A stretch of 64,000 nucleotides of DNA from Aplysia californica (taxonomy: Eukaryota). The position numbers and the translations under genes were made by a program. Position 1 is the stretch's first letter, and the number at the start of each line of letters is the position of its first letter. Where the stretch lies: NCBI RefSeq assembly GCF_000002075.1, contig NW_004797831.1, positions 62,001 to 126,000 on the forward strand, written 5' to 3'. The notes under the pieces were generated by a model that did no database searches, had not been told where the DNA came from, and saw only the letters and a program-made list of their open reading frames with translations. This document shows positions 22,079-58,534 of this stretch, piece after piece.

Positions 22079-22821
22079 TGTCCAGTTTAAAAACACAAAG
22101 CAATCAGCAAGTCAAGTTGCAGTTCGTGCAGGTTATCGTTGTAATGTAAAGCAGCACAATACGAAATTCTGCTGGGGCACCAGGGCATTGGCCTACTGCT
22201 AGGTACGTCGCGAGGATGCAATCCCTGAATTTGAACGATGACTGCTTACCGTCCGTGCCTCTTCTGCTCTCAAATACTTCGTTTTGAAGCACCGAGCTAA
22301 ACCAAAGATAGTGGGAGGCTAAACTTTGGAAAAATTGAGTTGAATGTCATCTTCTAGGCTTAAATGTTCGATATATGTAATACCAGACCTAAAGTTCGGA
22401 AAACTCGTCTTCACCTCTGACCTTTGAACTAAGCAGACAGAAATAACCATAGATTATAACAGGCATGGGTAGATCACTGACACCAGTGGATTGGGGAATC
22501 CCGAAATGATGCCAAAGAGACTTGCTGGTGGGCGGCAGGAAAAAGGCACTGTGTGTGCCTGGAGTCTTCCCCATATCTGCAGGCCTATGTCAATGCTTTT
22601 AATACTGGAGACAGGAATAATGTTCCTTTCAGTTAGTTAAGTTAGTATGTGCCCAATCTAAATCAGCTAGTATAAGTATAAGGCTGGTGTGCTGATCAGT
22701 TCAGTGGGCAAGGGGGTTATGAAACTAGAATTCTCAGGCCCTTGGTGGCGGGCTATTACGGGACCCATGAGCTATTACTATAGTGGAGCTATTCAGCTGT
22801 TCAAAAATCTCCCCCCTCCCC

Positions 22822-23064
22822 ATAGTGGTTTGGCCCTCAGACTCGCAACCATAAGGTTGTGGGTTCGAATCCCGGCAGGGACCTGACAATATGTCCTTGG
22901 GAAAGGCACTTTAGACGAATTTTCCTCACTTCACCCAGGTGGGAATGGACACCAAGCTATAGACGGTGAAAGATCTTGTTAGTTTGTCAGTGTTTGAGCG
23001 CTTAATGAACTGCCAGCACTGTATGCTTCCCGTGAAGCTGAGGATGTTTCGGAGTGTACTATGA
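22822..23064 (+). mobile_element. Truncated copy of the same CORE-type SINE
   Basis: Colinear with 58203-58443 (GGTTCGAATCCCG, GTCCTTGGGAAAGGCACTTT, CTGTATGCTTC). Confidence 0.85.
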
Positions 23065-31400: not shown

Positions 31401-33311
31401 TCTGAATTCAAAGTATCTTTCATCAAAAGGAATAAATGGCTAAAATACAAGCTGTTTAAAGAGTGTGAAAACATATTTAAATAAAAGTAAAAGGTAATCA
31501 AAAAAATGTCTACAAATGTATAAATAACAATAATGACTACATAATGATACTCCTAAAACCTATACCAAATAAAGTCTCCCAAATCAAAAGGAAAATAGAA
31601 ATAAAAAACTAAAAAAAGAGATTCAGATACCCTAACTGATGCTAAATCAAGGAACATTGAAAAGCAAAGATTCCATTGAAACTCATATGATATGATGAAA
31701 GAAATATTTAAAGTCCATTGAACTGGAACACAACATAACGAGTCCTTTCATTTCAGGCAAACAGAAATTGAAATCTCCCCCCCCCCCTCAAAAAAAAAAA
31801 TTAACTTCAATACATACAATATGAATAGTCAATCAGTATGAACATTATTTTGAGTATCAGGTGAGTAAGAATAGTTTACCTCCTCGAACAACCGCAAACT
31901 GTAAGTGTTATCATCATCAACAAAGAACAAGACGCCTGGTTGTTTCTTGGTATTGCTCCTCAACCAGGCAAGACCAGCATTGCGCTGCAAAACACCCCGA
32001 GGCTTCAGCCAGCTGGGGTCATTGGAAGCTAGTTTGAAATGTGCTGGTGTAGCAACATTTAAATGAGTATAGTTGAAGCCCGTCTGTTTTAAGAAACGAG
32101 CCACGAGATTTGTTTTTGCATCAGCGTCTTCGATGACAATCCAGTGTATGTTTTTCACGTGCATCAGTGTTTGGCTCAGGCGGGTCAGTTCCGCCTTTTG
32201 TTCCATCCGAGTGTATGTCGGTGTAATGAGGTAAATGACTGGAAGCCCTGGAACCCACTTAGACTTTCCGTCGGAGGACAAGGAAGACAACTGCTGCTCC
32301 GCCTCTTTCAATTTTTTCTTGAGGATAAACTGGTCATTTTTCAGTTCCTGGTTCTGTTCATGATAGTTGTCCAGTAATCTCTTCGTAGCTCTCAGCTCCT
32401 CACTTTCACATTCTCGAACTGGAAAGAGTAAAAACTGTTCTGTTCAACTTTCAAAAGACAAAAGAGTACTTCTAATGAATTTCCATGTAAAAGCAGCCCT
32501 CAGATAAAGCAATAATACCTATTTACTATAATAATTACTTTTAAACAAAAAAGCTATACTGTACTACCGCAAGAAAACTGATGTTAAAAAACCCCGAAAC
32601 ACACTAAAAGAAACCTCAGAAACTATAGTAAACTTCTAGCTTCACTCACTATTGATGTAAGGGGTTTTAACAAGGATGTTAGACCCACCACCCAAACCTA
32701 GACCACACAAAGTAAGTTGCAATGAAAAGAAAACCACAATTCAGAGGACATTAAAATTCAGGCAATCATCTGCACTGAACATTTGATGCTACAAAAACCT
32801 CTATAATGCAGACAAGTAAAGTAGCAAAATGAGCACACACTGGATAAATAGCTTAAACAAATGTAAATATATTTATTTTAATCCGAAAAAAATAATACTT
32901 CACACGATTTAATCCACCTGCATCTGTTGGAAATGTATATAAATAGTTTTACAGCTTTTAGACACCCCATAATCAAACCCATTTTCAAACTTTGGCCAAA
33001 ACTGGCACCGATATATCTGGCATGGGAAATGAACTCCAGAATTCACTTCTTTTTTCACAAAACATGATTTATCTCTCATTTAACAACAAGCACTAACTTT
33101 TATTCTTTCTCTTTTACAAAATTTAGGTGAAGAAAAGAAATAATTTTTCTCAAGTTCAGAAAAGTCACATTTTGTTATAATTATAATACATTGTCCACAT
33201 CAACTCCAAATACTCACATGTATCATAAATCATCAGCACCACAAAGAAAGCCATGGCCACTACGCACCAAAAAAGGAAGCGAGAGGGTGTACACACACGT
33301 CTCAACTGCAT
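28473..33311 (-). CDS. B3GAT3: Galactosylgalactosylxylosylprotein 3-beta-glucuronosyltransferase (GT43, B3GAT/GlcAT family; 342 aa, 5 coding exons)
   Basis: Exons 33311-33218, 32418-31880, 31316-31230, 30582-30376, 28574-28473 (1029 nt). Type II anchor [18 protein letters not shown]; motifs [35 protein letters not shown] (DxD), [30 protein letters not shown]. The family is certain; the exact vertebrate orthologue is not. Confidence 0.92.
30040..30280. other. Assembly gap in the last B3GAT intron
   Basis: Run of N. The flanking exons join as [19 protein letters not shown], so no coding exon appears to be missing. Confidence 1.
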
Positions 33312-34075
33312 ATTAGAATGTCTGTTGGAGTCATACAACAATAATTTGGCTACTTCTTGTCAACTGGTAGTCTGTGAGGTAGCTGCGTCAGCCATTTTCA
33401 CTGCAAAATGAAAAAATAAATAAATTTATAAACAAGAGAAAGAAAATCAGAACTACTCAATTACAGAGCTAGCATGTTCACTCATCAAGAAGTGCAAAAT
33501 ACTCTTTCAAAACATACTTCTACAAAACTCAAAGGCTCACTTTGATTTTGATGATGGTCCATAATTTTTAGACAATGAATCGTGATGCAAATATAATGGC
33601 TTACCCTGCTTTGAACATCGCCTAAAATGGTTTGGACATTGTCAAGACCACTACCAGACAGTATAATAGCCAAAGCGTACAACCAGAGAGCAGATGGATA
33701 CAGAGAGAGGCAGGCTCGGGAAAAGATGGATTAAGGGGGAAAGAAAAACATTAGACAAAACAGTAACCATGCAACAGGCAATACAACAAAACATTAGACA
33801 AAACAATAACCATGCAACACGCAAACAAGAGGAAGACTTTTTCTTCTCTCCTCGACATGGTAAGGCCACAGTGGCTCGGAAAAGTAAAAAGTAAACTAAG
33901 AACAACTTGTGAAAGATGTCCAGATATAATAATTAAAATGATAAACTAGTACTAGTTCTGTTACATTTATTTAGTATTTTTAAAAATAGTCGTAGCAGCC
34001 ACTGAACAAAAAAGATAAATACTTTTCTTATATTTAATCAGTATAGTATAGCATATAATATATAATGAGAAGCAT

Positions 34076-34478
34076 CGAGGTGGAATCAGGTGGTCGTCAA
34101 AATAATGAAATTGAAGGAGCCAGCATTTTTTCCATTGCCACCAGTTTGGCAATTTCTATCAATTTTTTTCTCTCGCTTTTTAACACTTTTAATGTCCATT
34201 TACAAACACATGTCTGAGTCAATTTTACCAAAAATTGTTGATTAAAGGCACAACAAATGTAAATTTTTACTTTTCAAGGACTCTCAAGCTATGGAAGTCA
34301 CCACACTTTTCTCCTAATTTTACCTCAGAAACCAGGTGACCTCCCACCTCTTTCAATCGCACATATCTCAACTTCTATTCAAGATAGAAGGGTATTTTCT
34401 TCACCAAAAGCAAGACAAACAAACAAGTTTTAAGATGCTACCAATAACTCCAAGCCCCAACAAGGGCGCCTGATTCCT
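34076..34478. mobile_element. MITE family with consensus TIR GGAATCAGGCGCTCGTC; other copies at about 44888-45160 and 54600-55015
   Basis: Three colinear copies with inverted ends GGAATCAGGCGCTCGTC / GACGAGCGCCTGATTCC; the superfamily is uncertain. Confidence 0.7.
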
Positions 34479-34764
34479 TCCATCCCCACCCCCCAACTCA
34501 CACACACACACACATCCTTAAAAAAAAAAAAAGCCAGATCTATGGCATTCTTAGGCAAGCGACCACAAGAGGTTGGGGCCTCAGAAGGGAATGGTTTGTT
34601 TTCTTCTTTTTGATAGTCCTGTCGAAGACAGCTAGATGATGTAACATGAAGCTACAGCGAACACCTAGCACACTTCTGTGATTGGCCCAAATATAGAGGG
34701 TATATTTCTGCCATCTATTTTTGTCGTCTTCCGGGGCTTCCCTAGCAAGTAGACTAGATCTCAC

Positions 34765-35100
34765 CGTGGTGGGCCCATGCCATGGGCAACGTCACAAGGT
34801 TTCATCGCCGACTGCTTGGGCTGCGTGTGCACGCGCACGCTTGTGTGTGAGTGTGCGCGTGTGTGTACAACTTTGAGGAGAAGGTAAATAAATGGAACGA
34901 GAATTGCTGAGATTGTTTTTAAAAGATAACACAAATTAATAAACCCCCCCCAAAAAACACACAATCTAACTCCCCCCCCAAACAATCCCGGCAAGATCTA
35001 GTGAACAGTTACCAGCAAAGGAACCCAAGAGTCTGGGGGAAACCCCGGAAGACGACAAAAATAGATGGCGGAAATATGTCATCTATATTTGCGCCATAGA
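34765..35100 (-). promoter_or_regulatory. Probable promoter and non-coding first exon of the B3GAT gene
   Basis: CpG-rich patch with a GTGAG donor at 34764 (minus), which could splice to the acceptor at 33401-33402. TGCACGCGCA (NRF1-like) and AGATGGCGG (YY1-like) motifs lie nearby. The upstream boundary is approximate. Confidence 0.5.
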
Positions 35101-35431
35101 TGTACACTATAGGCACTAGATACAGTATGCCCATCTCTCGCCTTACTGCGCGATGTCCACATTCGACAGCAGCGTTCGCCACGTTTTTTGGGGCAAGCTG
35201 TGCAAAGGAGTTAATGGTAGGCCTAAAGCAATATGGGCTAGGCCTAGGCATGTTTTCTCTCTCATACGCGATAGGCGAGGCATGGACCTTGTTGATTTTT
35301 TTTTTACATGAACGCCCTGGCATACTAGAGTCTATATCTAGATTACTAAATAGCATAATACAGCGTTCTTTCTACAACTAAGTTTACAAAAAAATGTATA
35401 ATTAAATAGATAGAGATAGAGATAATTATAT

Positions 35432-36942
35432 GGCCGGCACTATTTCTCTGAACGTTCGGGAAAATAAAGCTAGGCACTATTTCTCCGAAAGTTTGGGAAA
35501 ATAAAGCTGGGCACTATTTCTCCGAACGTTCGGGAAAATAAAGCTGGGCACTATTTCTCCGAACACTCTGAAATCTCACCCTTTCCTGCAAATTTCGGAT
35601 ATTATAGATATTAGATCTATAATTATGGTATAGGCCTACCAAAGATTGTTCGTATACAATATGGTTCAATCGGTCCAAAAAATGTCCGCAGTAAATATTT
35701 ATATAAAGAAATGCTACAATTCCAAACAGTTTTTCGCTACAGATATGACGTGTTGCCTATGAAGGACGTAATGTGTTGTGTTCACTTGTGTGCTGTCTAG
35801 ATCTAGATCTACGGAGGGTTATTGATAACGACACATAGAACTGGCATCTGCGTTTGTCACTGCTGCGGCCAATTTATTGTCCTGACACTGGCAAGCCCCT
35901 TAATGTGTGTGATTCCATAATTTACATGTAATATCCTGTACTTTAAAAAAAAATTATGCACATTTCAGGTTAAAACAGCCAATCTTCTTCGGACAGGTGG
36001 ACACACGCCCTTATTTGTTAATGTTTGTTGTTGTTTATGGGCTGTTTTAATTTTGATTTCTTTCTGTTGTGAAACCTTTCTTTTTCACGTTTTTACACTC
36101 ATCTAAAAATCCCTAGACTAGCTCTTGAAAATTGAAATAGATACAGACCCAAAAATTTGCTCCTGAGTGTGTGTGTATGTATGATGTGCGTGTGTGAGTG
36201 TGTCTGTGTGTGGTAGTAAGTGGAGAGTGAGGAGTGTGTGTAATGTGTGTGTTTGTTTTTCGGGCTTTATTTCAGCCTTTTTTCAGTGACAGTTCAAAGT
36301 ATACAAAAATAGAAACACAGGATCCATTCACTCCAGGGCTCACGAGTCGTTCGTCTCTTTCAGTTTCACACATTCATTCAATTCTCGTGTTCTCTCGGGC
36401 GGCTCATCCCCGTCCGCTTGACTTCCATACCCCACCCCTCCCTCCAGGCACACACAAAGAAAATCTCACTCATTCCCTTGCACCCTGCGAACCATGGACA
36501 GTAATGTAGGCAAAACACTGCCTGAGCTGCATTCCTTTTGTTCGTGAGCTGTGGACCAGGCCAGGGGGGTCGGTGTCGTCGTCTTGTAGTTGCTGTCGCC
36601 TGTGGATACACTCGAACATTCTTCCTTTCACCCGCTCTTTCACTCACACTGTCTCTCCATCCACAGCTCAGCTCTTCATACATTCAAAGGTTGCCCACTG
36701 GTCATGTTTAGTGTGTGTGTACATGTGCATGATGGTGGTGGGTGTATGGTGGGTGTTACTGAAGGTTGTCTGTAGGCGGGCTTGCCATGCGGTGTTCTTT
36801 CCCAGACCAGAGGCAGAATGAAAGTTTGCGCCGAACTCTCGCAATAAATAGGCAAAAAAACACGAGACCGGAAGCCGGAAACCGTTCGGAGAAATAAAGA
36901 TCGGCACTATTTCTCTGAACGTTCGGAGAAATAGTCACTTCG
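35432..36942. mobile_element. Non-autonomous MULE/foldback-like DNA transposon E1 (1511 bp)
   Basis: Exact 9-bp TSD TAATTATAT (35423-35431 and 36943-36951). Inverted subterminal repeats are built from CTATTTCTCCGAACGTTCGG. Confidence 0.85.
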
Positions 36943-37914
36943 TAATTATATAGATCTAGGCTTTAAAAAGAAGAAAAACCCCCCCCTTACTTTAATTCTT
37001 CATCAGCACTTTATCTATGAGGTGGTTTATTTCTTATTGACTGAATCAAAGCGTAGATCTATAGATCTAGGGCCTATAGATCTAAAACTTTTAAAAAGAA
37101 GTATGAAAAGATGTGGGTGTCATGGGAACCTCCCAAACTTCAAGTTGGCCTAACCAGTGAACCACCCCGCCCTCTCTCCTCCCAAATCCCAGTGGCAATA
37201 ATACGAACACCCCCCCCAATCAAATATATGAGTTTTGGCATTAAATTAAATCAAGATGAGCCATAGAAAAGAAATTCCAGAGTTTTTCTGCCATCAGGTG
37301 TAGGAAGGCAATGATCATATAAGCTCTTGATAAAGCAAATATGAAATGACAGACAGGGTGAACGTCTTTCAGACTCAGACTCAGAGGTTCACTTTTTAGG
37401 TTAGGTCTACGACGTGTGATATTATAAATACAGAGATCATTGTGAAGAAACAAACTTGCAAAACACTTACATGGATAAGGCCATCATACTAGATCTACTA
37501 CCGTGACATCTTAATTGAAACAAAATGATTTTAAAATTTCGATGTCTGATGTTCCAACTTCCAACTCTCCGAGGAAAGAACCGAAAGTAGGAACTGAACG
37601 AATGAAACGTTTACAACAAAGGTGAAAGGTCAAAATGAAAACTAGATTTTGAGGCAGTGCCAAGTTGATATTGAATGTGATCGTTCTATTTGTAAATGTT
37701 TTTCTCGACATGTGGGATTATTGCTCTAGAAAATTCACCAAAACATCTTTTGGAAGTAATAAAAAGTGATACAGTTTTTCTTTTGATCCTCTGATCTTGA
37801 CAACACTTTGTAACGAATGCTCCTTATTCGTGCAAGTTTTGAAAGCAGCAGACGGAAAGAAACCTGGTTAGAAAAGGCAGTTGTTTGTGATGGTCACATG
37901 ATCTATGTGACAAA

Positions 37915-39644
37915 ATGTCGTCGGAACGGTTTGAGTCACTTGAGGATGATGTGAATAACATCATAGACAACCTCAAAGAAATTGAAAGGAAAGCTGTTTC
38001 TCTTTCAGGAGGTAGGGTTCGGTAGAAATGTTTTGAAGTTTCCAAGATTGAAGGTTGAAATTGAGACTTGTAGATCTTTTAGTCTTACACTTGATTAGGT
38101 TCCAGAACTGATGGAAGTCTTCAGAGAGACGACGGATCCTAGTTCTATGATTCTGTCCAAAAACTCCTCGCCCCTCCCTCAGCAGGGCCCATCTTACAGT
38201 AACCTTTACAGCCTTCCAGTAGGCCTAACCGATTGCTGATTAGTCTGCCAGTGTTGCGGAGGCTTAAAACTGAGCTTACCCTACCCTGGCTTTGAGTCAT
38301 TCTCTTCAGCTCCTCTCTCCACCCCTCTTCTTTTGTTGTTGTTATTTTGAATTTTGACTTTGTCACTGAACACTGAGCCACCCCACAAGCCAGCCAGAAG
38401 AGTCACTGACAGCACCGATGGGTCAGCCCAGAATAAAGACCCAGTGAGACGCTTTGCTTTCGAAATAATGCAGGTCTATAAAACTATTTTGTCTTTAGGT
38501 TGTGAACTCTCGCAAAAGGAAGAGGCTAGCCGTACTTTATGACGGCTAGACTGGCAGTCTAGCCGTACTTATTTATTCTTAATATGATGGCTGGACTGAC
38601 CATTTACAAAAAGGTAGTGTCAATTGCCACCGAGTGACGCGGTGGCAATTGACAAAAATTGACTTTTTGTCAATTGCCACCAAGTAAATTGGAGCTCTTT
38701 TGTGTTGGTGGGTAGATCTAGCTTATTGTGCTTGAGCTCAGTGTTGTGCGTTCGCCTCTCTGTCCCTCTGTGTGTGTGTGTACTGTGTGTGTGTGTGTGT
38801 GTGTGTTTGTGTGTTTTCCTGACCCCCATCCCCCGATTTATGTTCCCCGATATAACTTGAATTTCTGCTTGAGTTTGTGTGCGTTTGTGACCTTCTACTT
38901 CTAGAATTGCCCGTGCCGGTTCTACACCAAAGTGTAGGCTAAGGCTAGCCTAGATCTAGGCATACGTCTCATTGAAAACACGCCAAGTTGGTACCGTAGT
39001 TCTAGACTAGATCTAGATTTTGGATGCTTGTCCAATGAAATTAGTTCAGAACAAATTGACCCATTAGACACACATTATGTATAATGCTAAAGATAGAGTG
39101 TTGTTTTCAGACTTGACACCGCTTCACTCGGTGGCAATTGATAAAAAGTCAATTTTTGTCAAGGGAGTGTATACAGACCCGGTAACCGGGAACAAAGTCA
39201 CAAAGTATACAGACCCGGTAAAGGGACTCTTTTGTGATTTCGGAGAATTTCAGCGCCCTCTTGGCTCAGGGTAGATCTAGGTTCTTCTAGATCTGTGGCC
39301 TAGATCTAGATAGACAGACTTAAATCTTTGATCTAGTTTTGCGGCTAGCCTAGATCTAAATGAAGATTGTGGATGTCTTTTCGATGAACGATCGTTTTTC
39401 CTCCGTTTTGGAGTTGGAGGAATCACAATTTGAAGAAAAGAACAAGTTACAATGTCATAATTTCAATCAAGCAGTCCCCCCTCTCTCTCTCTCTCTCTCT
39501 CTCCTCTGTGTATGGCTCGCCTTCTCTTTTTCTTTGTTTGTTTCTGTCTTTCTTTGTCCCCACCTATTTCCAACTCTTATCTTTCTCTCGTTCCCTCCTG
39601 CCAACTGGGGCATGTCATACATTTTGCTAACAACCCCCCCCCCT

Positions 39645-39716
<72 letters not shown>

Positions 39717-42700
39717 TAGATTTCTACCGGGTCTGGGGGCTGAAACTTCCCGAAATCACAAAAGAGTTCCCCTACCGGGTCTATATACTTCGTGACTTTG
39801 TTCCCGGTTACCGGGTCTGTATACACTTCGTTTTGTCAATTGCCACCGCGTCACTCGGTGGCAATTGACGCTACCTTACAAAAAATAGGCCTACTGAATT
39901 GTAAATATACATTTTTAGTGTGCAGTACCTAAAGTATTTGTATTTGAGACGAAACCAGGTGACTTAATGACAGTGCATGTATTTTAAACCTCCTGTTTCC
40001 TAATGTTAATAGTAGGGCCTAAGATAGTACGGCTAGACTGGCAGTCTAGCCGTACTTAAGTGAAATTTTTAGTTTGCAATGCCTAAAGTATTTGTATTTC
40101 AGACAAAACCAAAAGGTGCCTTACTGACTTGCATGTATTTGAACCTGAATAATTACTAGATCTAGATCTAATGAGACCTGTGTACTTAACAGGCTTGAGT
40201 CGATAGGGCCAAACCTAGATCTAAGTACGGCTAGACTGGCAGTCTAGCCATACTTAAGTACGGCTAGCCACTTTGCTCGCAAAAACCAAATAAAAACTAG
40301 TTTGAAGAATTGAATCCTTTCACCCAGGCCCAGGCAAGTTCTTCGCCGATATTATTTATGAAGAATTTGGTAAAATTTTACTTTTTTACTCGCATGCAGA
40401 TGCACCGCTTGTGGGTTAAACTAACAAATTTTTTTACAGAGAACATATGGCCACTAGGGATGGGCGTTAGTCGATATTAGCCTATCACGAGTACTGGTAT
40501 CGACTAAGAAATTCAGTTTCGATCAATACCCGGTACTGGTTAAGGAAATTGTTGGAAAACAAAGCACACTACGCTTGTATGACATGATCAAAATGTACTA
40601 GGCCTATTGGAATACTGACGAATAGTATTCTCAGACTTCTGACCGAGGAATGACAAGAGGCCTACTACTACTAGTAAAAATGGCTGCAACTGTACACGTA
40701 CTATAGTACATGTATGTAACTTGTAAGAGTAGACAAAAATTATTTTTACCCATGTTATCTCTGTTACTGTTTAAGGTTTTGAAAGTGAAGGGTCTATCTT
40801 AGTTTCTGTTTAAAAAAATGCTCCGTATTGACTAGTATCGATTAAGAGACTTCCAATATCGAGTATCGGAAAGTTGCCTTTTTTAACCAGGACTGGGTAC
40901 TGGTATCGACTAGGGTGACCTTATTTAGGCCACATATGGCCTAAATAAGCTAAACCCCCCTCCCTTACCTTATTTAGGCCACCTGTGGCCTAAATAAGCT
41001 AAACCCCCCTCCCTTACCTTATTTAGGCCACACCTGTGGCCTAAATAAGCTAAACCCCCCTCCCTTACCTTATTTAGGCCACACCTTTATACAAAGTCAC
41101 AGAAAAATTCCTTTTGTGCTTATTGAGGTACAGTGCAGGGTGATTTTACCTGCAAGGATAATTGGACAAAATGGGCAAAATCTTTATTGCTAAATGTCAT
41201 ATGTAGACAAATCCTATATCATTGTCTTTTTTTTTTTCTTAACTGCTCATGGTTATTAAAGAGTAAGCCAACTAGGTAGAAATTTCGGATTCCTAATACT
41301 AATATTATTATGGGCATTCTTAAAATTTTTTAACTTGTTTTTAGCGCTTTTCTCAATGTAAAACGGATTCCGTAAAAAAACAATGACCTTATCTTTCTTT
41401 TTCAAAGTATTGTGCATATGTTTGTGTGAAACTATATATTTTATGCTTTCATGTACATGAAAAAAGCTAATAAAGGCAAGCAAAATGTTCTTCAGAGACA
41501 TAGATCTAGTAGTAGGCCCACTGAATGTTTTTTACAAACCGGGAAAGATGACCAGAAAATAACAAAATTATTTTATGATCTTCACTTGCACTTGCAATTT
41601 TTTTTATAAATTATAGTCTACCTCATTGTCTTTTTTTTTCATCATTTTTCTTCACTATTCATGACAACTGGCATGTATTGTTTTCAGTTATTATCAAGAA
41701 AGTGGATAGGCGGACTACGGGGTCTATCTAGCCAAAAGGATAGGTGGACCCCGGGGTCTACCTAACAAAATGCTAGGATTTAGGATGTGAACCCTAGAGT
41801 CAGCGTAGTCAAATAAGTAGATCTAGGTTTAACTAAGGATCGGTGGACCCCGGGGTCAACATAGTGAAATAAGTAGATCTCAGTTTATTTTATAGTAGGA
41901 CTGGCGGAGCCCGTGGTCAACGTAGTGAAATTATAAGTAGATATAGGTTTAATTAAGGATTGGTGAACCCCGGGGTCAACGTAGTGAAATCAGTAGATCT
42001 AGGTTTAATTAAGGATTGGTGGACCCTGGGGTCAATGTAGTGAAATAAGTACATGTAGATCTAGGTTTAATTTTAAGGATTGGGGGACCCTGGAGTCAAC
42101 GTAGTGAAATAGGTAGGTTTAAGGTGGACCCCAGGGTCTACCTAACGAAATGCTAGTTATGTTTTTAGAATAGGTGGAACCTGCGGTCACCGTAGTAAAA
42201 TAAGTAGGTTTAATCTAGGTGCCCTGGGGGTCCACCAATCCTTAATTAAACCTTCTTATTCCTCTACGGCTATGGTGACTCCGGGGTCCACCAATCCTTT
42301 TAAAATTAACCCTGCTTATTTCACTACGCTGACCCCGGGGTCCACCAATCTTTAAAGAAACATACTTATTTCACTACGGTGACCCCGGGGTCCACCTGTC
42401 CTAAAACCTAGTATTTCGCTAGGTAGACCCCGGGGTCCACCTTAAACCTGCTTATTTATCACTACGTTGACCCCGAGGTCCACCAATCCTTACTTAAACC
42501 AAACCTTATTTCACTACGGTGACTCCGGGGTTCACATCCTAAAACCTAGTATTTCGCTTTGCAGACCCCGGAGTCCACCTATCCTCTTCAGGACTAAACT
42601 ATTATCAATTTGCAATTTTCATTGATTAGCATTTTTTATATTTTTATATTGAATCAGAGACTCGCTGTCTAAAAAGTCCACTGCTAATGCTATTCTTTTC

Positions 42701-42792
42701 AAAGAAAATGGCACAATTTGATTTTATGACATTTTGAAAAAAAAGAGTTTTAAAAATATCCCGAAAACAACATAAAAAAATGATTATGTAGA

Positions 42793-42879
<87 letters not shown>

Positions 42880-45800
42880 ATTTTATTATGTATACTAAAA
42901 GACTGAGCAGAGGCTTACAATGTAAATTCTGTGCTCTACAAGTAGAGAAAATCTTAAGTTTGCGCAAAACAGATTTTAGAAAAAAAGTTGGATCTAATTA
43001 TTCTAATAAAAGTAAAAGTGATTGTTATGCTGAGATTTGTTATTATTAACTCTGGAAATACAGTTACTTGCTGAATCTAAAAGTAACTAGAACTGTGCAA
43101 TTCGTTTTATTTCAATTCCAAAGCCCAAAGGCATAGCAATAATAAGTTAGATCTAGATCTAGCAGTTGTAGGCTCTCTGGCTGCTTCTAGCAGAGGCCTG
43201 CTACTACTGATTCTAGACAGGGAATCTAGATCTTGCTATCGCCTGCGCTATTTAAGTCAAATATATGGTAAAATAAAAACAAAACTGAATTTTTTGTCAG
43301 TCAGTACATCCCAATTGCCATAGCCGCACGTATTAATAGTTGAATAATGCGATACCGAAGCAACACGTTATCACAGTGTGCAGGGGAGAGCGAGGTGCTC
43401 GGTCGATTCGGTGGTTCGGCTTTTGTAGATCTATGCATTTTTTACGGAAAGCCCTATTACCTAACCCTATTACTAGATCTATTAGTGTTGTGAAAACTTC
43501 AACCTCTACAGCTCAGGCATCAAAAGATGCTGGAAAATAATATTACGTCCTGAAGTTTCATAATTTATTTTTATACAGAATAACACAGTACACAGCCAGT
43601 AGTTTTTATTTCATCGAGTTATAAAAATGGCCTTCGTATAAAAATTGCCACGTTTTCAGAAGCAAATTTTAATAGTTCTAGTTCTACCGAATCGATTTTC
43701 ACGCGAATTCAACCATTTTGATGATCTTTCTTTTCCTTTTAAAAAGATGTAGGCCTGTCGGATGTGGCAGTGCGAATAACACTGAGCTGTTTAGACCCAT
43801 CAAAACACGAGGCTTTGTGGCCGATCACAAAAGTCTACAGGGCTTATCGAGGCCGATTCGCCCTGCTGCGAGCACGTTCACTAAACTGCCTACTAGATAG
43901 AATCTACTACCAAATATTCTCTACACGATCTTTGCTACTACTACTACTACTAGGCCTACTAGCCTACATGTACTACTACGAGACAGTACGAGAGAGTGTC
44001 ACTCAGGCAAAGATAGTGTAACTTTGACTCAGCTACGTAGTGTACACACTTTTTATACCCCAAATTTAACCCGGAAGTCCATTCGGAGGATTTGACCTTT
44101 TCACTTGACCAAAGTGTGCCAAAATGGTAGCCTAGCTTTTGCCCCTCCATGAAGGAAAAATCTGGCCCTCATTCAAACCAATGGGATTGAGCAAAATTTT
44201 GCGTGTTGTGCTTTGTTCTTTACAATATTCATTATGGTTATGATTTATAAGTTGTACACTGAGACAAAACTGTACTAAATGAGAAAGGTGCACCATTATG
44301 AAAGTGGAACGAACTCAGTTGCCTGAAATGGTGTCCCCCGGTAGTTTGAGCATGTGTGGCCTAAATAAGCTAAACCCCCCTCCCTTACCTTATTTAGGCC
44401 ATATGTGGCCTAAATAAGCACTCCCTTTTTCCTATCGACTAACACCCATCCCTAATGGCCACCATAACTGACGCAAATCAATTGAAATGCTATGCAATCA
44501 GGCCTATTGTAATTAGTAGGCCAAGTATAAAAACACCATCTCATTTTACACTAAAAATAATTTATGTTGGATATAAAGTCAAGTTTGTGTTAAACAGATA
44601 AAAATGAACAAGAAAAGGGCTGTAGAAATATCTGCGCTTTGATCTAAATTTGCATGGATGGGGGCATGAAAACAGAACATTTTTAGAAAAGAAGGCATCT
44701 GTACCAATGTAGGCCTACTGTATCTTCTCAAATCTCAGTGCATTTATATTTATGTTTTTATCATATTTTGTTTGTTTGCAGAGGACAGAAAAAATGCCAT
44801 CAGAAAAGCTGAGAGAAAGCTTGAGGAGGCAAATGTTATTGTAAGTACTAAAAAGATACATATATGTAGGCTATGTGATGCAGTGTAGTGAAAATCAGGG
44901 GCTCGTCAAAATAATGAATGTGAAGAAATTGGCATTTTCGCGCAGGTTTGGGAATTTGAATCTAATTTTTGTCTTTTGGCTCAACACCGTTCTTGTCCAT
45001 TGAAGAACACTTTTCTGTGTGGACAGTGTCAACATATTTTTAATATAAGGAAATAACTAATTTATAATTTTTCATCAAAAGCAAGACAAATAAACAAGCT
45101 TTGAGACGATAGAAATAACTCAACAAGCCCAAAAATGGACGAGCGCCTGATTCCACAGTGTCGTGACACCTATTTAAGAAATATAATTGTTCATTCCTCA
45201 CTAAAAATTGTGAGTGTAAGCTTGCGTGCGCATCATGTGTGTGTGTTTAAGAGGAAGATAGGGTGTGTTCAAGCACATGTCTGCATTTGATAAGATACCA
45301 TTGTATTTAGATCTTATTTTGCCCTCATTCTTTATTTTTCGATACTTGGCACTTATGCAAAACTGTGAAATGTTGAAAGCATATGACTGATAAAAATACA
45401 TTTATTTTACAGTTAATGAAAAAGCAATTTCAGTTTGTATATAATATTTGAATTATAAAAAAAAAAGATGTAAAACTAAAAATTTGCTTCATGGGAACTG
45501 AAGACATTTGCACCTTAGGGATGATAGGGGAAGCTTAAAGTCTGTTGCCATTCAACATTTTATCTATGTGAACATTTGTTCTATATCAGCTTTATAATAT
45601 TTATTTCATTCATGTCCAAAAATTTCATATTCTACTGTTATGTTTTTAGGTTCAAGAACTTGAGTCAGAAGCAAAGTTGGCCCCCGTGAACTATCGCACA
45701 CAATTCTTAGGTCGAATTCGACATTATCGAAATGACATTGACCAGCTTGCAAGAAATCTGGTAAGAACAGTTTAGCTGCCTTCTTGTGTTTATATTTTGA

Positions 45801-48800
45801 ATCTGTTTCAAATTTAGGTCCACTTGAGACTGAATTTTAAAATACGTTTTAAATATTCCGCGAGTAGAGGTTTGCTTAGTTTGCTTACTACCAAAATTCT
45901 TCTTCATTCCTCTATTATATTTCAAGAGTATCATTGTAGATTGTAGGTTTTTCAACACATGGTCAATCAAACCTAATGTTCATGCCCTAATTCTATCTCG
46001 GGAGATCGAGCCCTCTGCCTTTTCTTTCTGTTTTATGGTAGCTTTGAACACTTTCCCGCCTCATCTGGCCGATTGGCCATGTTTGCCACCCAGTTTCTTT
46101 GGATTTTCCACAAAATATGACGGCAAAGTGTTTATACAATCTGCTTGTAAATTGGATGTTGGAATTGATTCAGAATTACACTGAAGTAATCATTGTGAAT
46201 TGGGTTTTTTTTTGGGTTTTTTTTTTTAATTTTTAAATTGCTGGACTGTATCTTCAATGTGTGCATAGAACACATCAGACCTGATAGTTTTTCAACCTGT
46301 CTGGTGCCTTCCCTCCTTGGGCTTGCTTTGGTCACACATGGCCGTATTCGTCTATTTGTGTCTCGCTCCTTGCCACAGCAGACCTTTGTCTTCCCTGCTT
46401 TCTGCTTCTACTTCTATGTATTGTTTCAGGAAGTTCTTGACTACTGTCGGGTTTTATGTTTTACATGTATGATATAGGAGGTCTTTCCATACTTTTCTTT
46501 GCCTCTATTTCACCCTGCAGCACATTGTCAACAGATTCGTTGTTGTTGTTGTTGTTGTTGTTTCTGTTTGTGTAGCCAAGGTTTCCTTGGGATTGCTGGT
46601 ATTTAAAAAAATCTTAGCTAAGTATTACGTTTTGTTGACTCTATTAGCATGACAAAAAAACGTACATTTATACTTGAGGTGAGCAAGGAAAATCTTACTC
46701 TTATGAATAAACCTTCAATTTCAACATTTCTGATAAGATGCTGTTAATTCCTATATCATTGATGTCCTGATAAGTAATGATCTCATTGTGATTTTTGTCA
46801 ACAGAAACGAGGCCCTCCTTCAGGTGCTAGTGGCTCAGACAATTATGGTTTCGACAGAGAGGAGGTGAGCATTTTTTTTCATTTTCTTTGCTGCAGTTTT
46901 CAATGGTTTGGTTTAGCCTTCAGGGTGACACTTGTTTGAGAAGATTTGATGTTAGCATGGAAACATAAAGACAGTTGGATCAGCAGAACCATCTTTTTTT
47001 TTCCCTCAGATTGTTATTTATCATTTTTATCAACTGGACTGTGTAAACTGAAGAGTTAGTTTGCTAATTTAATTGCTCGTGCATGGTTTGCCGTGTGAAT
47101 TTGCCTTTGTTTCTGGAGCTGGCTTTCATAAATTCCAGCCTTTATATTTTGTTTCGAATGTGTTTTCAGATTGTTAAAGAGCATTCTCTTTTATTTGAAA
47201 TTGTAGAGACTGGATTCTGCCAACCGGGCAAAGCTGCTACAGGGCCACCAGTCATTACAAAGGACCTCGGACAGCATTGCCAGGTCACATCAGATTGCAG
47301 CTGAGACTGACCAGATTGGGGTGGAAATTATCGATGAACTGGGAGAGCAAAGAGAGACTTTGATACGAACTCGAGAACGGGTAAGTGCAGTCACAGTGCA
47401 GTAGTTGAATAAGCTGTCGTATAGCAATCACAGCAGCGCTAGGTGAAGCTTTTGACATTGTTTTAACACTTGAATAACCCTTGGGCATTTCCTTTGGTAA
47501 TAAAGTTTTGTTCGTTTCCTTTGGAATGTACCTGACTAAAATCGCTCTACTTATAGAGACGTGCCAAGTACTCTGATTTTATCGGAGCCCTCCAATATTT
47601 TTTTTTGCTCGTTGAAAAACTGTGATTGGATTTGCTTAAAATCCAATTTTTTGTCTAGAATTCTGTTTCCGTCAGACTGTGGAGTCTGGTTGAAAACGGG
47701 ATTGAAACATTCCATTCTCAAATTTCATCCTTCTTAGAGCTTTTTCTGCCTCAAAATGCAGAAAATAGGGCTTGGATGATTTCTGAGAGGATGCTGTCCT
47801 ATTCCTAGTTTAAGTTTTTCAAATATCTTTCTGGATATCGTCGCCATTATGATAAGATTGGCTAGATACAAAATTTTTTGTTTTGCTTTTTCTCGCGTAT
47901 ATTTTTTTTTCTGAGACAACTTGTATTGAGGAAATCGTCTTTCTCTTCCACAGCTAGTAGAAACTGATGCAAATCTAGGGCAAAGTAGAAAAATCCTGAA
48001 ATCTATGGCAAGAAGGTAAGATGGTATTTGGTAGCGGCAGTTGATGGTAGATTGTTTGAGGTGTCTAGACTGAACAAAGATTTATTCTGTGGGGCCTCCT
48101 CATTTTGTTTGAAAATGCGTACATTTTTAAAATGTCCTCTTGCATAAGTAGAGTTCGTGGTTTATTTGTTAGGCTGTTGAGCTCGTAACCGAAAGATCAT
48201 AGATTCGAATCCTGTTAGGGGCCTGATGTTGTGTCCTTTGGAAAGGTATTTTCCTTTCTTCACTCAGGTTGGAATGTGTACTTGGCTACAGACGGCAAAA
48301 GATCTTGTTCGAATGTTAATATTGGAGGGCTTAATAGGCTTACTGTATGGTGGTATACTTTCAGGGAAGCAAAGACTGTTTCTTAGTGTTCTTGGGTCTG
48401 CTGGGGTAATAGATGTTGTAAACTGCAGTTTGTTGTAGAACATGAGTATGCGTCATATGAATGCAAGTGCCATTATTTTGCTGCTATTTCGTTGGTTATG
48501 TCTCTAAAAATAACCCATACTTTCTCGAACGGAATTGAATGTACAGTATAACACGGATAGGTCGAACACAGAAGACTCAAAATCACACATCTGTCGAACT
48601 GTACCTGTGGTCCCGTTTTTTTCTTCTTCTTTATCTTTGTAAGATATCCCTCGAACTAGGGATTCCTCGAACTACTGAGGCCGGTCCCGATGAATTCGAG
48701 ATGTCTGTGTTATTCTATTTTCACATTGGTTCATTTTGTGAAATCTTTAATGTTTTTTTTTTTTTTCTTCACGATAATATTATTACATATTTTAGCTTTC

Positions 48801-58188: not shown

Positions 58189-58534
58189 GGGTGTCTGTGG
58201 CCTAGTGGTTAGGCTCTCGGACTCGCAACCGTAAGGTCGTGGGTTCGAATCCCGTCAGGGACCCGACGTTGTGTCCTTGGGAAAGGCACTTTACATGCAT
58301 TTTCCTCACTTCACCAAGGTGGGAATGGGTACCCGGCTATAGTCAGCGAAAGATCTTGTCAGTTTGTTAGTATTTGAGCGCTTCATCAGCTGCTTGCACT
58401 GTATGCTTCACAGGAAGCTGAGAATGTTTCGGAGTGTTCTATGGTCTGCTGGGGTAATAATATAGTGTAAAGCGCATAGAGCCTGCTGTTGAGCGGGGAT
58501 ATGCGCTATACAAATGCTATCTATTATTATTATT
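58189..58534 (+). mobile_element. Near full-length tRNA-derived CORE-type SINE
   Basis: A box TGGCCTAGTGG, B box GGTTCGAATCC, CORE-like GTGTCCTTGGGAAAGGCACTT, and an L2/MIR-like tail TGTAAAGCGC...GCGCTATACAAATG..(TAT)n. Confidence 0.85.

What the first reader, a model, noticed from the sequence alone, without database searches (positions are those of the whole stretch)
35432..44432. Six distinct 9-bp-TSD transposon families with one shared end architecture, packed into 9 kb around a divergent promoter
Seen: E1-E6 have apparently unrelated interiors, but all have exact AT-rich 9-bp TSDs. One or both ends of each resemble (G/C)RNAGTG: CGAAGTG (E1, E4), CAAAGTG/GGAAGAG (E2), GGTAGTG (E3), GGGAGTG (E4, and subterminal in E5), GAAAGTG (E6). 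The outermost bases are often mismatched between the two ends. Each family then carries its own repeated palindrome: CTATTTCTCYGAAC|GTTCGGAGAAATAG, GTACGGCTAGACTG-G-CAGTCTAGCCGTAC, GTCAATTGCCACCG-N7-CGGTGGCAATTGAC, CCCGGT-A-ACCGGG, CTTATTTAGGCCA-N4-TGGCCTAAATAAG, GGTGGACCCC|GGGGTCCACC. I saw no element of this type elsewhere in the window. Established: 9-bp TSDs and repeat-rich TIRs mark Mutator/MULE/Foldback elements, and maize Mu prefers gene 5' ends. Inference: this is a radiation of promoter-seeking MULE families with a conserved cleavage motif and swapped palindromic transposase-binding sites, possibly uncatalogued.
Basis: partly seen in the sequence, partly recalled or inferred. Interest (0 to 1): 0.72.

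Follow-up and report, generated by a model that had tools for sequence, protein, structure and literature searches.

The report
Gene-start-seeking Mutator-like transposon families
Five families of short jumping DNA, likely moved by Mutator-type enzymes, are piled up in the first introns of two back-to-back genes in this animal genome, and four of the five sit near gene starts across the genome, possibly because their enzyme would read a chromatin mark of active promoters.

Summary
Real, with corrections. E1-E5 are genome-wide repeat families (about 190-530 exact ends each for E2-E5) with changing, AT-rich 9-bp target duplications (63 exact of 85 scorable E1-E4 copies; 10 of 12 for E5). E6 is no sixth insertion: 30 of 30 best copies lie inside E5 at the same site. 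Ends are fixed, asymmetric 7-mers outside a family palindrome; CGAAGTG is shared by E1, E2, E4 and by further families found elsewhere. Three long elements with such ends carry decayed MULE/ZSWIM-type transposases, one with E4's own ends; two end in a TAF3-like PHD finger (Rehavkus layout). The elements lie in the first introns of a head-to-head B3GAT-like/VTI1B-like pair, not in the promoter. Genome-wide, E1-E4 and F7 cluster with one another (about 10-fold) and lie upstream of gene domains (20 genes versus 0 downstream within 15 kb); E5 shows no clustering. The end layout (nematode Tm1, mosquito Muta1) and the 5' bias (maize Mu) are already described. New are the mollusc-like host, the non-clustering sister family and the PHD lead. 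No earlier scan note matched E4's sequence.

The parts
35432..36942 (.). E1, 1511 bp non-autonomous element; ends GGCCGGC / CGAAGTG; 37-bp subterminal repeats; TSD TAATTATAT; in intron 1 of the minus-strand gene
38518..40275 (.). E2 (about 0.5 kb without inserts); ends GGAAGAG / CAAAGTG (family: CGAAGTG); TSD CTCGCAAAA; holds E3
38613..39875 (.). E3 (about 0.58 kb without E4); ends GGTAGTG / GGTAGCG; TSD TTACAAAAA; nested in E2
39163..39830 (+). E4, 668 bp; ends GGGAGTG / CGAAGTG; TSD TTTTGTCAA; nested in E3; keeps the ATG-started 5' coding stretch (39360-39446) of the transposase-bearing long copy at G000:C167
40455..44454 (.). H, low-copy element with TAGGGATG ends and 8-bp TSD ATGGCCAC (hAT-like by recalled traits); host of E5
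40913..44425 (.). E5 proper; ends GGGTGAC / GGGAGTG; youngest family; carries E6 in all copies examined
44426..44432 (.). 7 extra bases between E5's family end and the true TSD TATCGACTA (44433-44441); likely donor flank taken along by a displaced cut
   Evidence: mechanism inferred
41698..42599 (.). E6, 902 bp foldback-like passenger fixed inside E5; left end GAAAGTG; TSD TATTATCAA identical in other copies
37471..37583 (-). First exon (as far as contigs reach) of a glycosyltransferase-43 (B3GAT-like) gene; intron 1 = 33401-37470
   Evidence: spliced contigs of runs X1 and X2; Pfam PF03360
37878..38011 (+). First exon (as far as the contig reaches) of a v-SNARE (VTI1B-like) gene; intron 1 = 38012-44781 holds E2-E6 and H
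   Evidence: Pfam PF05008/PF12352; the gene name is recalled
37584..37877 (.). About 295 bp between the two 5' ends: likely bidirectional promoter core, free of these elements
   Evidence: contigs cannot show true starts

Best explanation
E1-E5 are five non-autonomous, multi-copy DNA transposon families with 9-bp target duplications (E6 rides inside E5), likely moved in trans by MULE transposases of the ZSWIM/PHD (Rehavkus-like) type, and E1-E4 lie preferentially near gene 5' ends, likely because they insert there. Shown: ends, duplications, nesting, copy numbers, a long copy with E4 ends and a MULE domain, co-clustering and upstream bias. Inferred from Muta1: the transposase binds the family-specific palindromes that start at base 8, cuts at the 7-bp terminal motif and makes a 9-bp staggered cut in AT-rich target DNA; families diverged in the palindrome while keeping the cut-site motif. 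Inferred: hot spots are open chromatin at the 5' ends of broadly expressed genes; insertions survive in first introns, and later ones land in earlier ones, giving the nests. Untested lead: the C-terminal PHD finger tethers the enzyme to H3K4me3. E5's presence at this locus may be chance or weak bias.
For: TSDs: 63 exact and 12 one-mismatch of 85 scorable copies (116 examined), 60 distinct, 88% A+T; E5 10 exact of 12. Long copies: C167, 4591 bp, E4 ends, TSD TTTCTCTAA, PF21056 and PF10551 above cut-off; C16 and C7 with GCAAGTG and CGAAGTG ends, exact 9-bp TSD, DDE and PHD. Clustering: 39 of 116 E1-E4 loci hold another family's end versus 4 of 120 random 3-kb tiles; on C1-C26, 13/48, 17/42, 15/43, 5/18, 17/95 within 5 kb versus 0.6-1.6 shuffled. 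Gene test: of 321 gene clusters, 20 have an E1-E4/F7 copy within 15 kb upstream and 0 downstream (E1-E4 alone 14 vs 0), symmetric at 20-100 kb. Near-identical E1 copies already sit in the same TAGATCTA-rich flanks. PHD's best PDB match is TAF3.
Against: No long copy with E1, E2, E3, E5 or E6 ends in the 43 transposase stretches scanned, and no intact transposase with any of these ends; the C167 copy shows no PHD. The direct tile test was null: 1 of 20 Ras 5' tiles versus 5 of 80 random (2 of 20 by BLAST). The gene test uses domain exons, not mapped starts; 'downstream' is mostly gene body; the 15-kb limit was set after a first look. E5 is not clustered (1 of 35) and its flanks are not TAGATCTA-rich. 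9 of 85 copies have no duplication and 1 has 8 bp. The PHD keeps both tryptophans of the TAF3 alignment but has Ser where TAF3 has Met.
Confidence: 0.78

Rival explanations
1. Insertion is random and the 5' bias comes from retention: copies are lost from gene bodies and elsewhere but kept near gene starts.
For: The youngest family, E5 (median pairwise 98%), is unclustered, while older E1-E4 (94-96%) are clustered; no copy within 15 kb downstream of domains suggests loss from gene bodies.
Against: Upstream density is about 6-8 times the 20-100 kb level (15 genes in 0-10 kb versus 8 in 20-50 kb and 9 in 50-100 kb); E1 copies 99.4-99.6% alike already lie in TAGATCTA-rich flanks (6 of the 8 youngest with 2-14 sites beyond background, counts 6,14,2,4,0,12,12,2); other old repeats are spread over the whole window.
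Confidence: 0.12
2. The target is a sequence class, not the promoter: the elements home on TAGATCTA-rich islands or on one another's palindromes, and the islands merely coincide with gene starts.
For: TAGATCTA in 94 of 116 masked flanks versus 27 of 120 random tiles; the elements carry the word themselves (20 of 36 window sites); frequent nesting.
Against: The duplicated targets are just AT-rich, with no TAGATCTA consensus; about two thirds of copies have no other family within 1.5 kb; E5 carries the word but is not clustered.
Confidence: 0.2
3. E1, E2, E3, E5 and E6 depend on a different 9-bp-TSD superfamily and only resemble the MULE-type ends.
For: A partner was found only for E4; foldback-type ends arose with several transposases (PMC3169594, passages).
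Against: E1 and E2 share the exact CGAAGTG end and the following GCTA/ACTA with the C7 and C16 MULE elements.
Confidence: 0.07

Closest known systems
Tm1 Mutator/Foldback family of root-knot nematodes (PMC3169594, passages)
   Same: 9-bp TSD; asymmetric 7-bp terminal motifs outside the inverted repeat; composite TIRs with variable repeat number; mostly MITE-like copies
   Different: One family with a Phantom-type FLYWCH transposase; here at least 11 end types share one heptamer, the transposase is ZSWIM-type with SWIM and PHD, and a 5' bias is measured
Rehavkus group (Repbase; described in PMC6446971, passages and Table S1 part 1; Tribolium preprint 10.1101/2024.12.02.626372, passages)
   Same: 9-bp TSD, subterminal tandem repeats, one ORF with C-terminal minisatellite and PHD finger (C16 element)
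   Different: Listed only for insects and an annelid; no target preference in the passages seen; no sequence available here to place these elements on the tree
Muta1 of Aedes aegypti (PMC5225508, PMC5499845, passages)
   Same: Terminal motif plus subterminal repeats bound by the transposase; 8-9-bp TSD; genic bias (64% vs 29%)
   Different: Phantom clade; symmetric 10-bp palindromic terminus; bias reported as genic within 5 kb, not 5'-specific
Maize Mu/MuDR (10.64898/2026.05.18.725947 and PMC10401008, abstracts)
   Same: Insertion hot spots at gene 5' ends; elements with dissimilar ends can transpose
   Different: Long simple TIRs, MURA/MURB proteins, plant host; targeting determinant stated as unresolved

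Membership tests
MULE superfamily | 8-11-bp target duplication | tested here: met
   63 exact of 85 scorable E1-E4 copies; 10 of 12 E5; E6 rests on one ancestral event
MULE superfamily | Terminal inverted repeats | tested here: met
   Composite TIRs starting at base 8
MULE superfamily | Long copy with the same ends encoding a MULE DDE transposase: E4 | tested here: met
   C167 element, PF10551 33 bits and PF21056 35-40 bits, broken by stops and frameshifts
MULE superfamily | The same for E1, E2, E3, E5, E6 | tested here: inconclusive
   None in 43 transposase stretches of 10-30 kb; related ends on C7 and C16
MULE superfamily | Preference for gene 5' regions (typical, not defining) | tested here: met
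   E1-E4: 14 genes upstream vs 0 downstream; not shown for E5 (2 vs 1)
Rehavkus | PHD finger in the transposase | tested here: met
   C16 and C7 elements, PF00628 31 and 26.6 bits; not seen in E4's C167 copy
Rehavkus | Minisatellite in the C-terminal part | tested here: met
   Proline-rich repeat in the C16 frame and at C52
Rehavkus | Transposase groups with Rehavkus on a tree | not testable with these tools
   The paper's FASTA supplements cannot be read; no Repbase
Phantom/Tm1 | Asymmetric 7-bp termini outside the TIR | tested here: met
Phantom/Tm1 | FLYWCH-type transposase | tested here: not met
   No FLYWCH hit in the fragments scanned or in the full-length relative P0006, which has ZSWIM3_N, MULE, SWIM, PHD
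Catalogued Repbase/Dfam families of this species | Sequence match to a library entry | not testable with these tools
   No such library is held

The most novel reading that the evidence does not exclude
A Rehavkus-like clade in a mollusc aims its insertions at active promoters with a TAF3-like PHD finger that reads H3K4me3, the first built-in promoter tether on a Mutator-type transposase, and E5 is a sister family that has lost or changed this aim, giving a natural control.
Probability: 0.25. Interest if true: 0.72.

Novelty: new variant of a known kind. Interest (0 to 1): 0.46.

Why it matters
How Mutator-type elements find gene 5' ends is still open even in maize (abstract of 10.64898/2026.05.18.725947). 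An animal clade with thousands of copies, a strong 5' bias in five families, a sister family without it and a candidate chromatin-reading domain makes that question testable. The families also reshape first introns of housekeeping genes (6.8-kb intron, about 5.8 kb of it these inserts) and could serve as markers of germ-line-open promoters in a poorly annotated genome.

Tried and rejected
Six independent insertions: rejected. E5's duplication as a false repeat of H: considered, rejected by other H copies. Swapped palindromes: not needed. Ras 5' tile test: null and underpowered; a 40 x 10-kb version could not be had, so 20 x 5 kb were used. CpG o/e and YY1, CCAAT and CRE words do not clearly separate flanks from random DNA; an Ets-like word is raised but may come from element ends. 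Raw RNA reads X21-X23 barely cover the two genes and gave no start sites; no holder is on record as RNA. E1 and C52 share only 64 bp, too little for a partner claim. The E4 coding stretch has no significant match to full-length relatives (E 0.26; none). A hAT-like stretch inside C167 is a recalled resemblance; three searches found nothing. Literature searches listed no description of these families, of a TAGATCTA promoter word or of PHD-guided MULE targeting; the library lacks most subscription papers, Yuan and Wessler 2011 and Marquez and Pritham 2010 were not held, and Repbase Reports are outside it.
Full report
Setting. The window is G000:C561:62001-126000 of a 927-Mb animal genome; earlier scan notes call it a sea slug or sea hare (not checked by me). 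The region was read in full.

Observation. The six 9-mers flank the six ends exactly and do not extend; the palindromes occur only at 35.4-44.4 kb. The anatomy is nested: E1 alone (35432-36942); E4 in E3 in E2 (38518-40275); E6 in E5 in an 8-bp-TSD element H (40455-44454). Interiors are unrelated apart from 15-16-nt words.

Families. Each has many copies (40 candidates scored per search, 30 fetched). Exact end words number 452 (E4), 533 (E2), 191 (E3, one end variant) and 402 (E5); E1's repeat unit occurs 1105 times, several per copy. Of 116 other E1-E4 copies, 31 lacked a scorable pair of ends; of the 85 left, 63 have an exact 9-bp duplication, 12 one mismatch, 1 only 8 bp and 9 none; 60 of the 63 are distinct and 88% A+T. 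For E5, 12 copies had both ends in hand: 10 exact, 1 one mismatch, 1 none. E6 differs: 30 of 30 best hits, the window's included, lie in E5 at the same site. It inserted once into an E5 founder; more distant free copies were not excluded.

Ends. The outer seven bases differ between the two ends in a fixed way: CGAAGTG in 21/23 E1, 17/19 E2 and 22/23 E4 copies, against GGCCGGC, GGAAGAG and GGGAGTG; E3 has GGTAGTG/GGTAGCG, E5 GGGTGAC/GGGAGTG. The inverted repeat proper begins at base 8 with the family palindrome. The window's E5 has 7 extra bases before a true duplication; one E1 copy has 9 extra bases and one E3 copy 12, and E6's odd right end reads as a heptamer plus 9 extra bases, so displaced cuts likely happen. 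A de novo scan of all fetched loci found more families of this build: F7 (8 distinct copies with 9-bp duplications, 7 exact; 1060 exact ends) and single copies F8-F11. Several palindromes start with related words, which favours divergence over swapping.

Transposase. MULE (37 matches) and ZSWIM1/3 RNaseH-like (51 matches) searches gave 43 stretches of 10-30 kb. At C167 a 4591-bp element has E4's ends, the duplication TTTCTCTAA and a broken MULE/ZSWIM-type domain; E4 keeps its first 311 bp at 77% identity, with the ATG-started stretch. Two more elements, C16 (3633 bp, GCAAGTG ends) and C7 (4444 bp, CGAAGTG/GCCGGTG), have exact 9-bp duplications, the same DDE domain and a C-terminal PHD. In C167 and C7 the CGAAGTG-type end lies 3' of the gene. 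A full-length relative (P0006) has ZSWIM3_N, MULE, SWIM and PHD, and five of the stretches match its PHD end. A 9-bp TSD, PHD and C-terminal minisatellite are the traits given for Rehavkus (PMC6446971, passages); its sequence supplements could not be read, so membership stays open. No long copy was found for E1, E2, E3, E5 or E6, and no intact gene with these ends.

Genes. Spliced contigs of two runs place a glycosyltransferase-43 gene on the minus strand with exon 1 at 37471-37583, and a v-SNARE gene on the plus strand with exon 1 at 37878-38011. These runs are guessed to be RNA and contigs cannot show true starts. E1 ends 641 bp inside one gene and E2 begins 640 bp inside the other; all inserts are in first introns.

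Is the site special? First, 39 of 116 E1-E4 loci hold an end of another family, against 4 of 120 random 3-kb tiles (P 4e-10) and 0 of 29 E5 loci, whose fetched flank was only about half as long. On C1-C26, where the exact-end lists are complete, 13/48 E4, 17/42 E1, 15/43 E2, 5/18 E3 and 17/95 F7 lie within 5 kb of another family (shuffled means 0.6-1.6, maxima 4-6; contig lengths partly interpolated), but only 1/35 E5 (mean 1.1). Second, 567 listed copies were set against 321 gene clusters of six Pfam families: 20 genes have a copy within 15 kb upstream of their first matched domain exon and none downstream (P 2e-6); E1-E4 alone 14 versus 0; at 20-100 kb the sides are equal; E5 gives 2 versus 1. 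The limit was chosen after a smaller first look (3 versus 0 at 10 kb); in the four families added afterwards the count is 15 versus 0 (counted by hand). Against this, a direct look at 20 Ras 5' tiles of 5 kb found 1 with an end versus 5 of 80 random. Third, masked E1-E4 flanks carry TAGATCTA at 1.0-2.0 per kb, random DNA at 0.29 and E5 flanks at 0.05-0.14; clusters of three or more were in 7 of 20 Ras tiles and 11 of 80 random ones. Near-identical E1 copies sit in such flanks too, which favours targeting over retention.

Mechanism. By analogy with Muta1, where subterminal repeats bind transposase and the terminal motif governs cutting and joining (PMC5499845, passages), the palindromes would set family specificity and the heptamer the cut. 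Targets are AT-rich 9-mers within hot spots at gene 5' ends, as for maize Mu (abstract) and, more loosely, Muta1 (64% versus 29% genic, PMC5225508, passages). The best PDB match of the C16 PHD is TAF3, followed by ING-type fingers (likewise P0006), and TAF3 reads H3K4me3 (PMC4673829, passages). Both tryptophans align, the methionine does not; that these form the cage is recalled. Tethering by the PHD is a lead only, and E4's own long copy shows no PHD.

Known and new. Asymmetric 7-bp termini outside composite TIRs with 9-bp duplications are described for Tm1 (PMC3169594, passages), and dissimilar ends for maize Mu (PMC10401008, abstract). MULEs are general in molluscs (PMC10294476, passages); PMC13359780 (abstract and section 3.2) uses Rehavkus only as outgroup. 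Eight literature searches listed no account of these families or of PHD-guided targeting; Repbase, Dfam and two key papers were out of reach. Verdict: a real cluster of a known kind of element, in a variant with a measured 5' bias, a built-in contrast family and a testable tether. Interest 0.46.

Noticed in passing
window 32000-44000; masked flanks of L002-L120: TAGATCTA-rich islands go with E1-E4 copies (94/116 vs 27/120) and with several Ras-family 5' regions; they may mark housekeeping promoters in this genome. Origin unknown.
   Followed up: partly
L114:2214-2763, L294:3218-3720 and others: F7, a 0.5-kb family with GAAAGTG/GGCCACC ends and 1060 exact ends, absent from the window, is the largest family of this type found.
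   Followed up: partly
L043:3292-4152, L047:140-3344, L052:421-1490, L087:1998-2568: Four more end types (F8-F11) with the same heptamer-plus-palindrome build; F8 resembles the C7 transposase element.
   Followed up: partly
L238:5900-7000: The 3' half of the long E4-type copy reads like a decayed hAT-type transposase (recalled motifs); three searches did not confirm it.
   Followed up: partly
L152 (G000:C90:1100821-1102347): An E5 copy 100% identical to the window's over 1527 bp: very recent movement, although no intact transposase with E5 ends was found.
   Followed up: no
L211 and L294 (G000:C319:784000-794100): An unbroken 661-aa ZSWIM-type frame without TIRs, possibly a domesticated gene; an F7 copy lies just behind its likely first coding exon.
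   Followed up: no
window 34683-35096: A further small element with 60-bp inverted repeats in intron 1 of the minus-strand gene; no duplication assigned.
   Followed up: no
L007, L011, L034, L059, L081, L294, L357: Several 200-400-bp elements with GG ends and 8-bp duplications recur in the same hot spots.
   Followed up: no
window 22817-23063, 48157-48340, 58197-58443; eight copies of a second repeat from 5031 to 61953: A SINE-like repeat with a tRNA-like head (recalled) and another dispersed repeat spread evenly over the window, unlike E1-E6.
   Followed up: no
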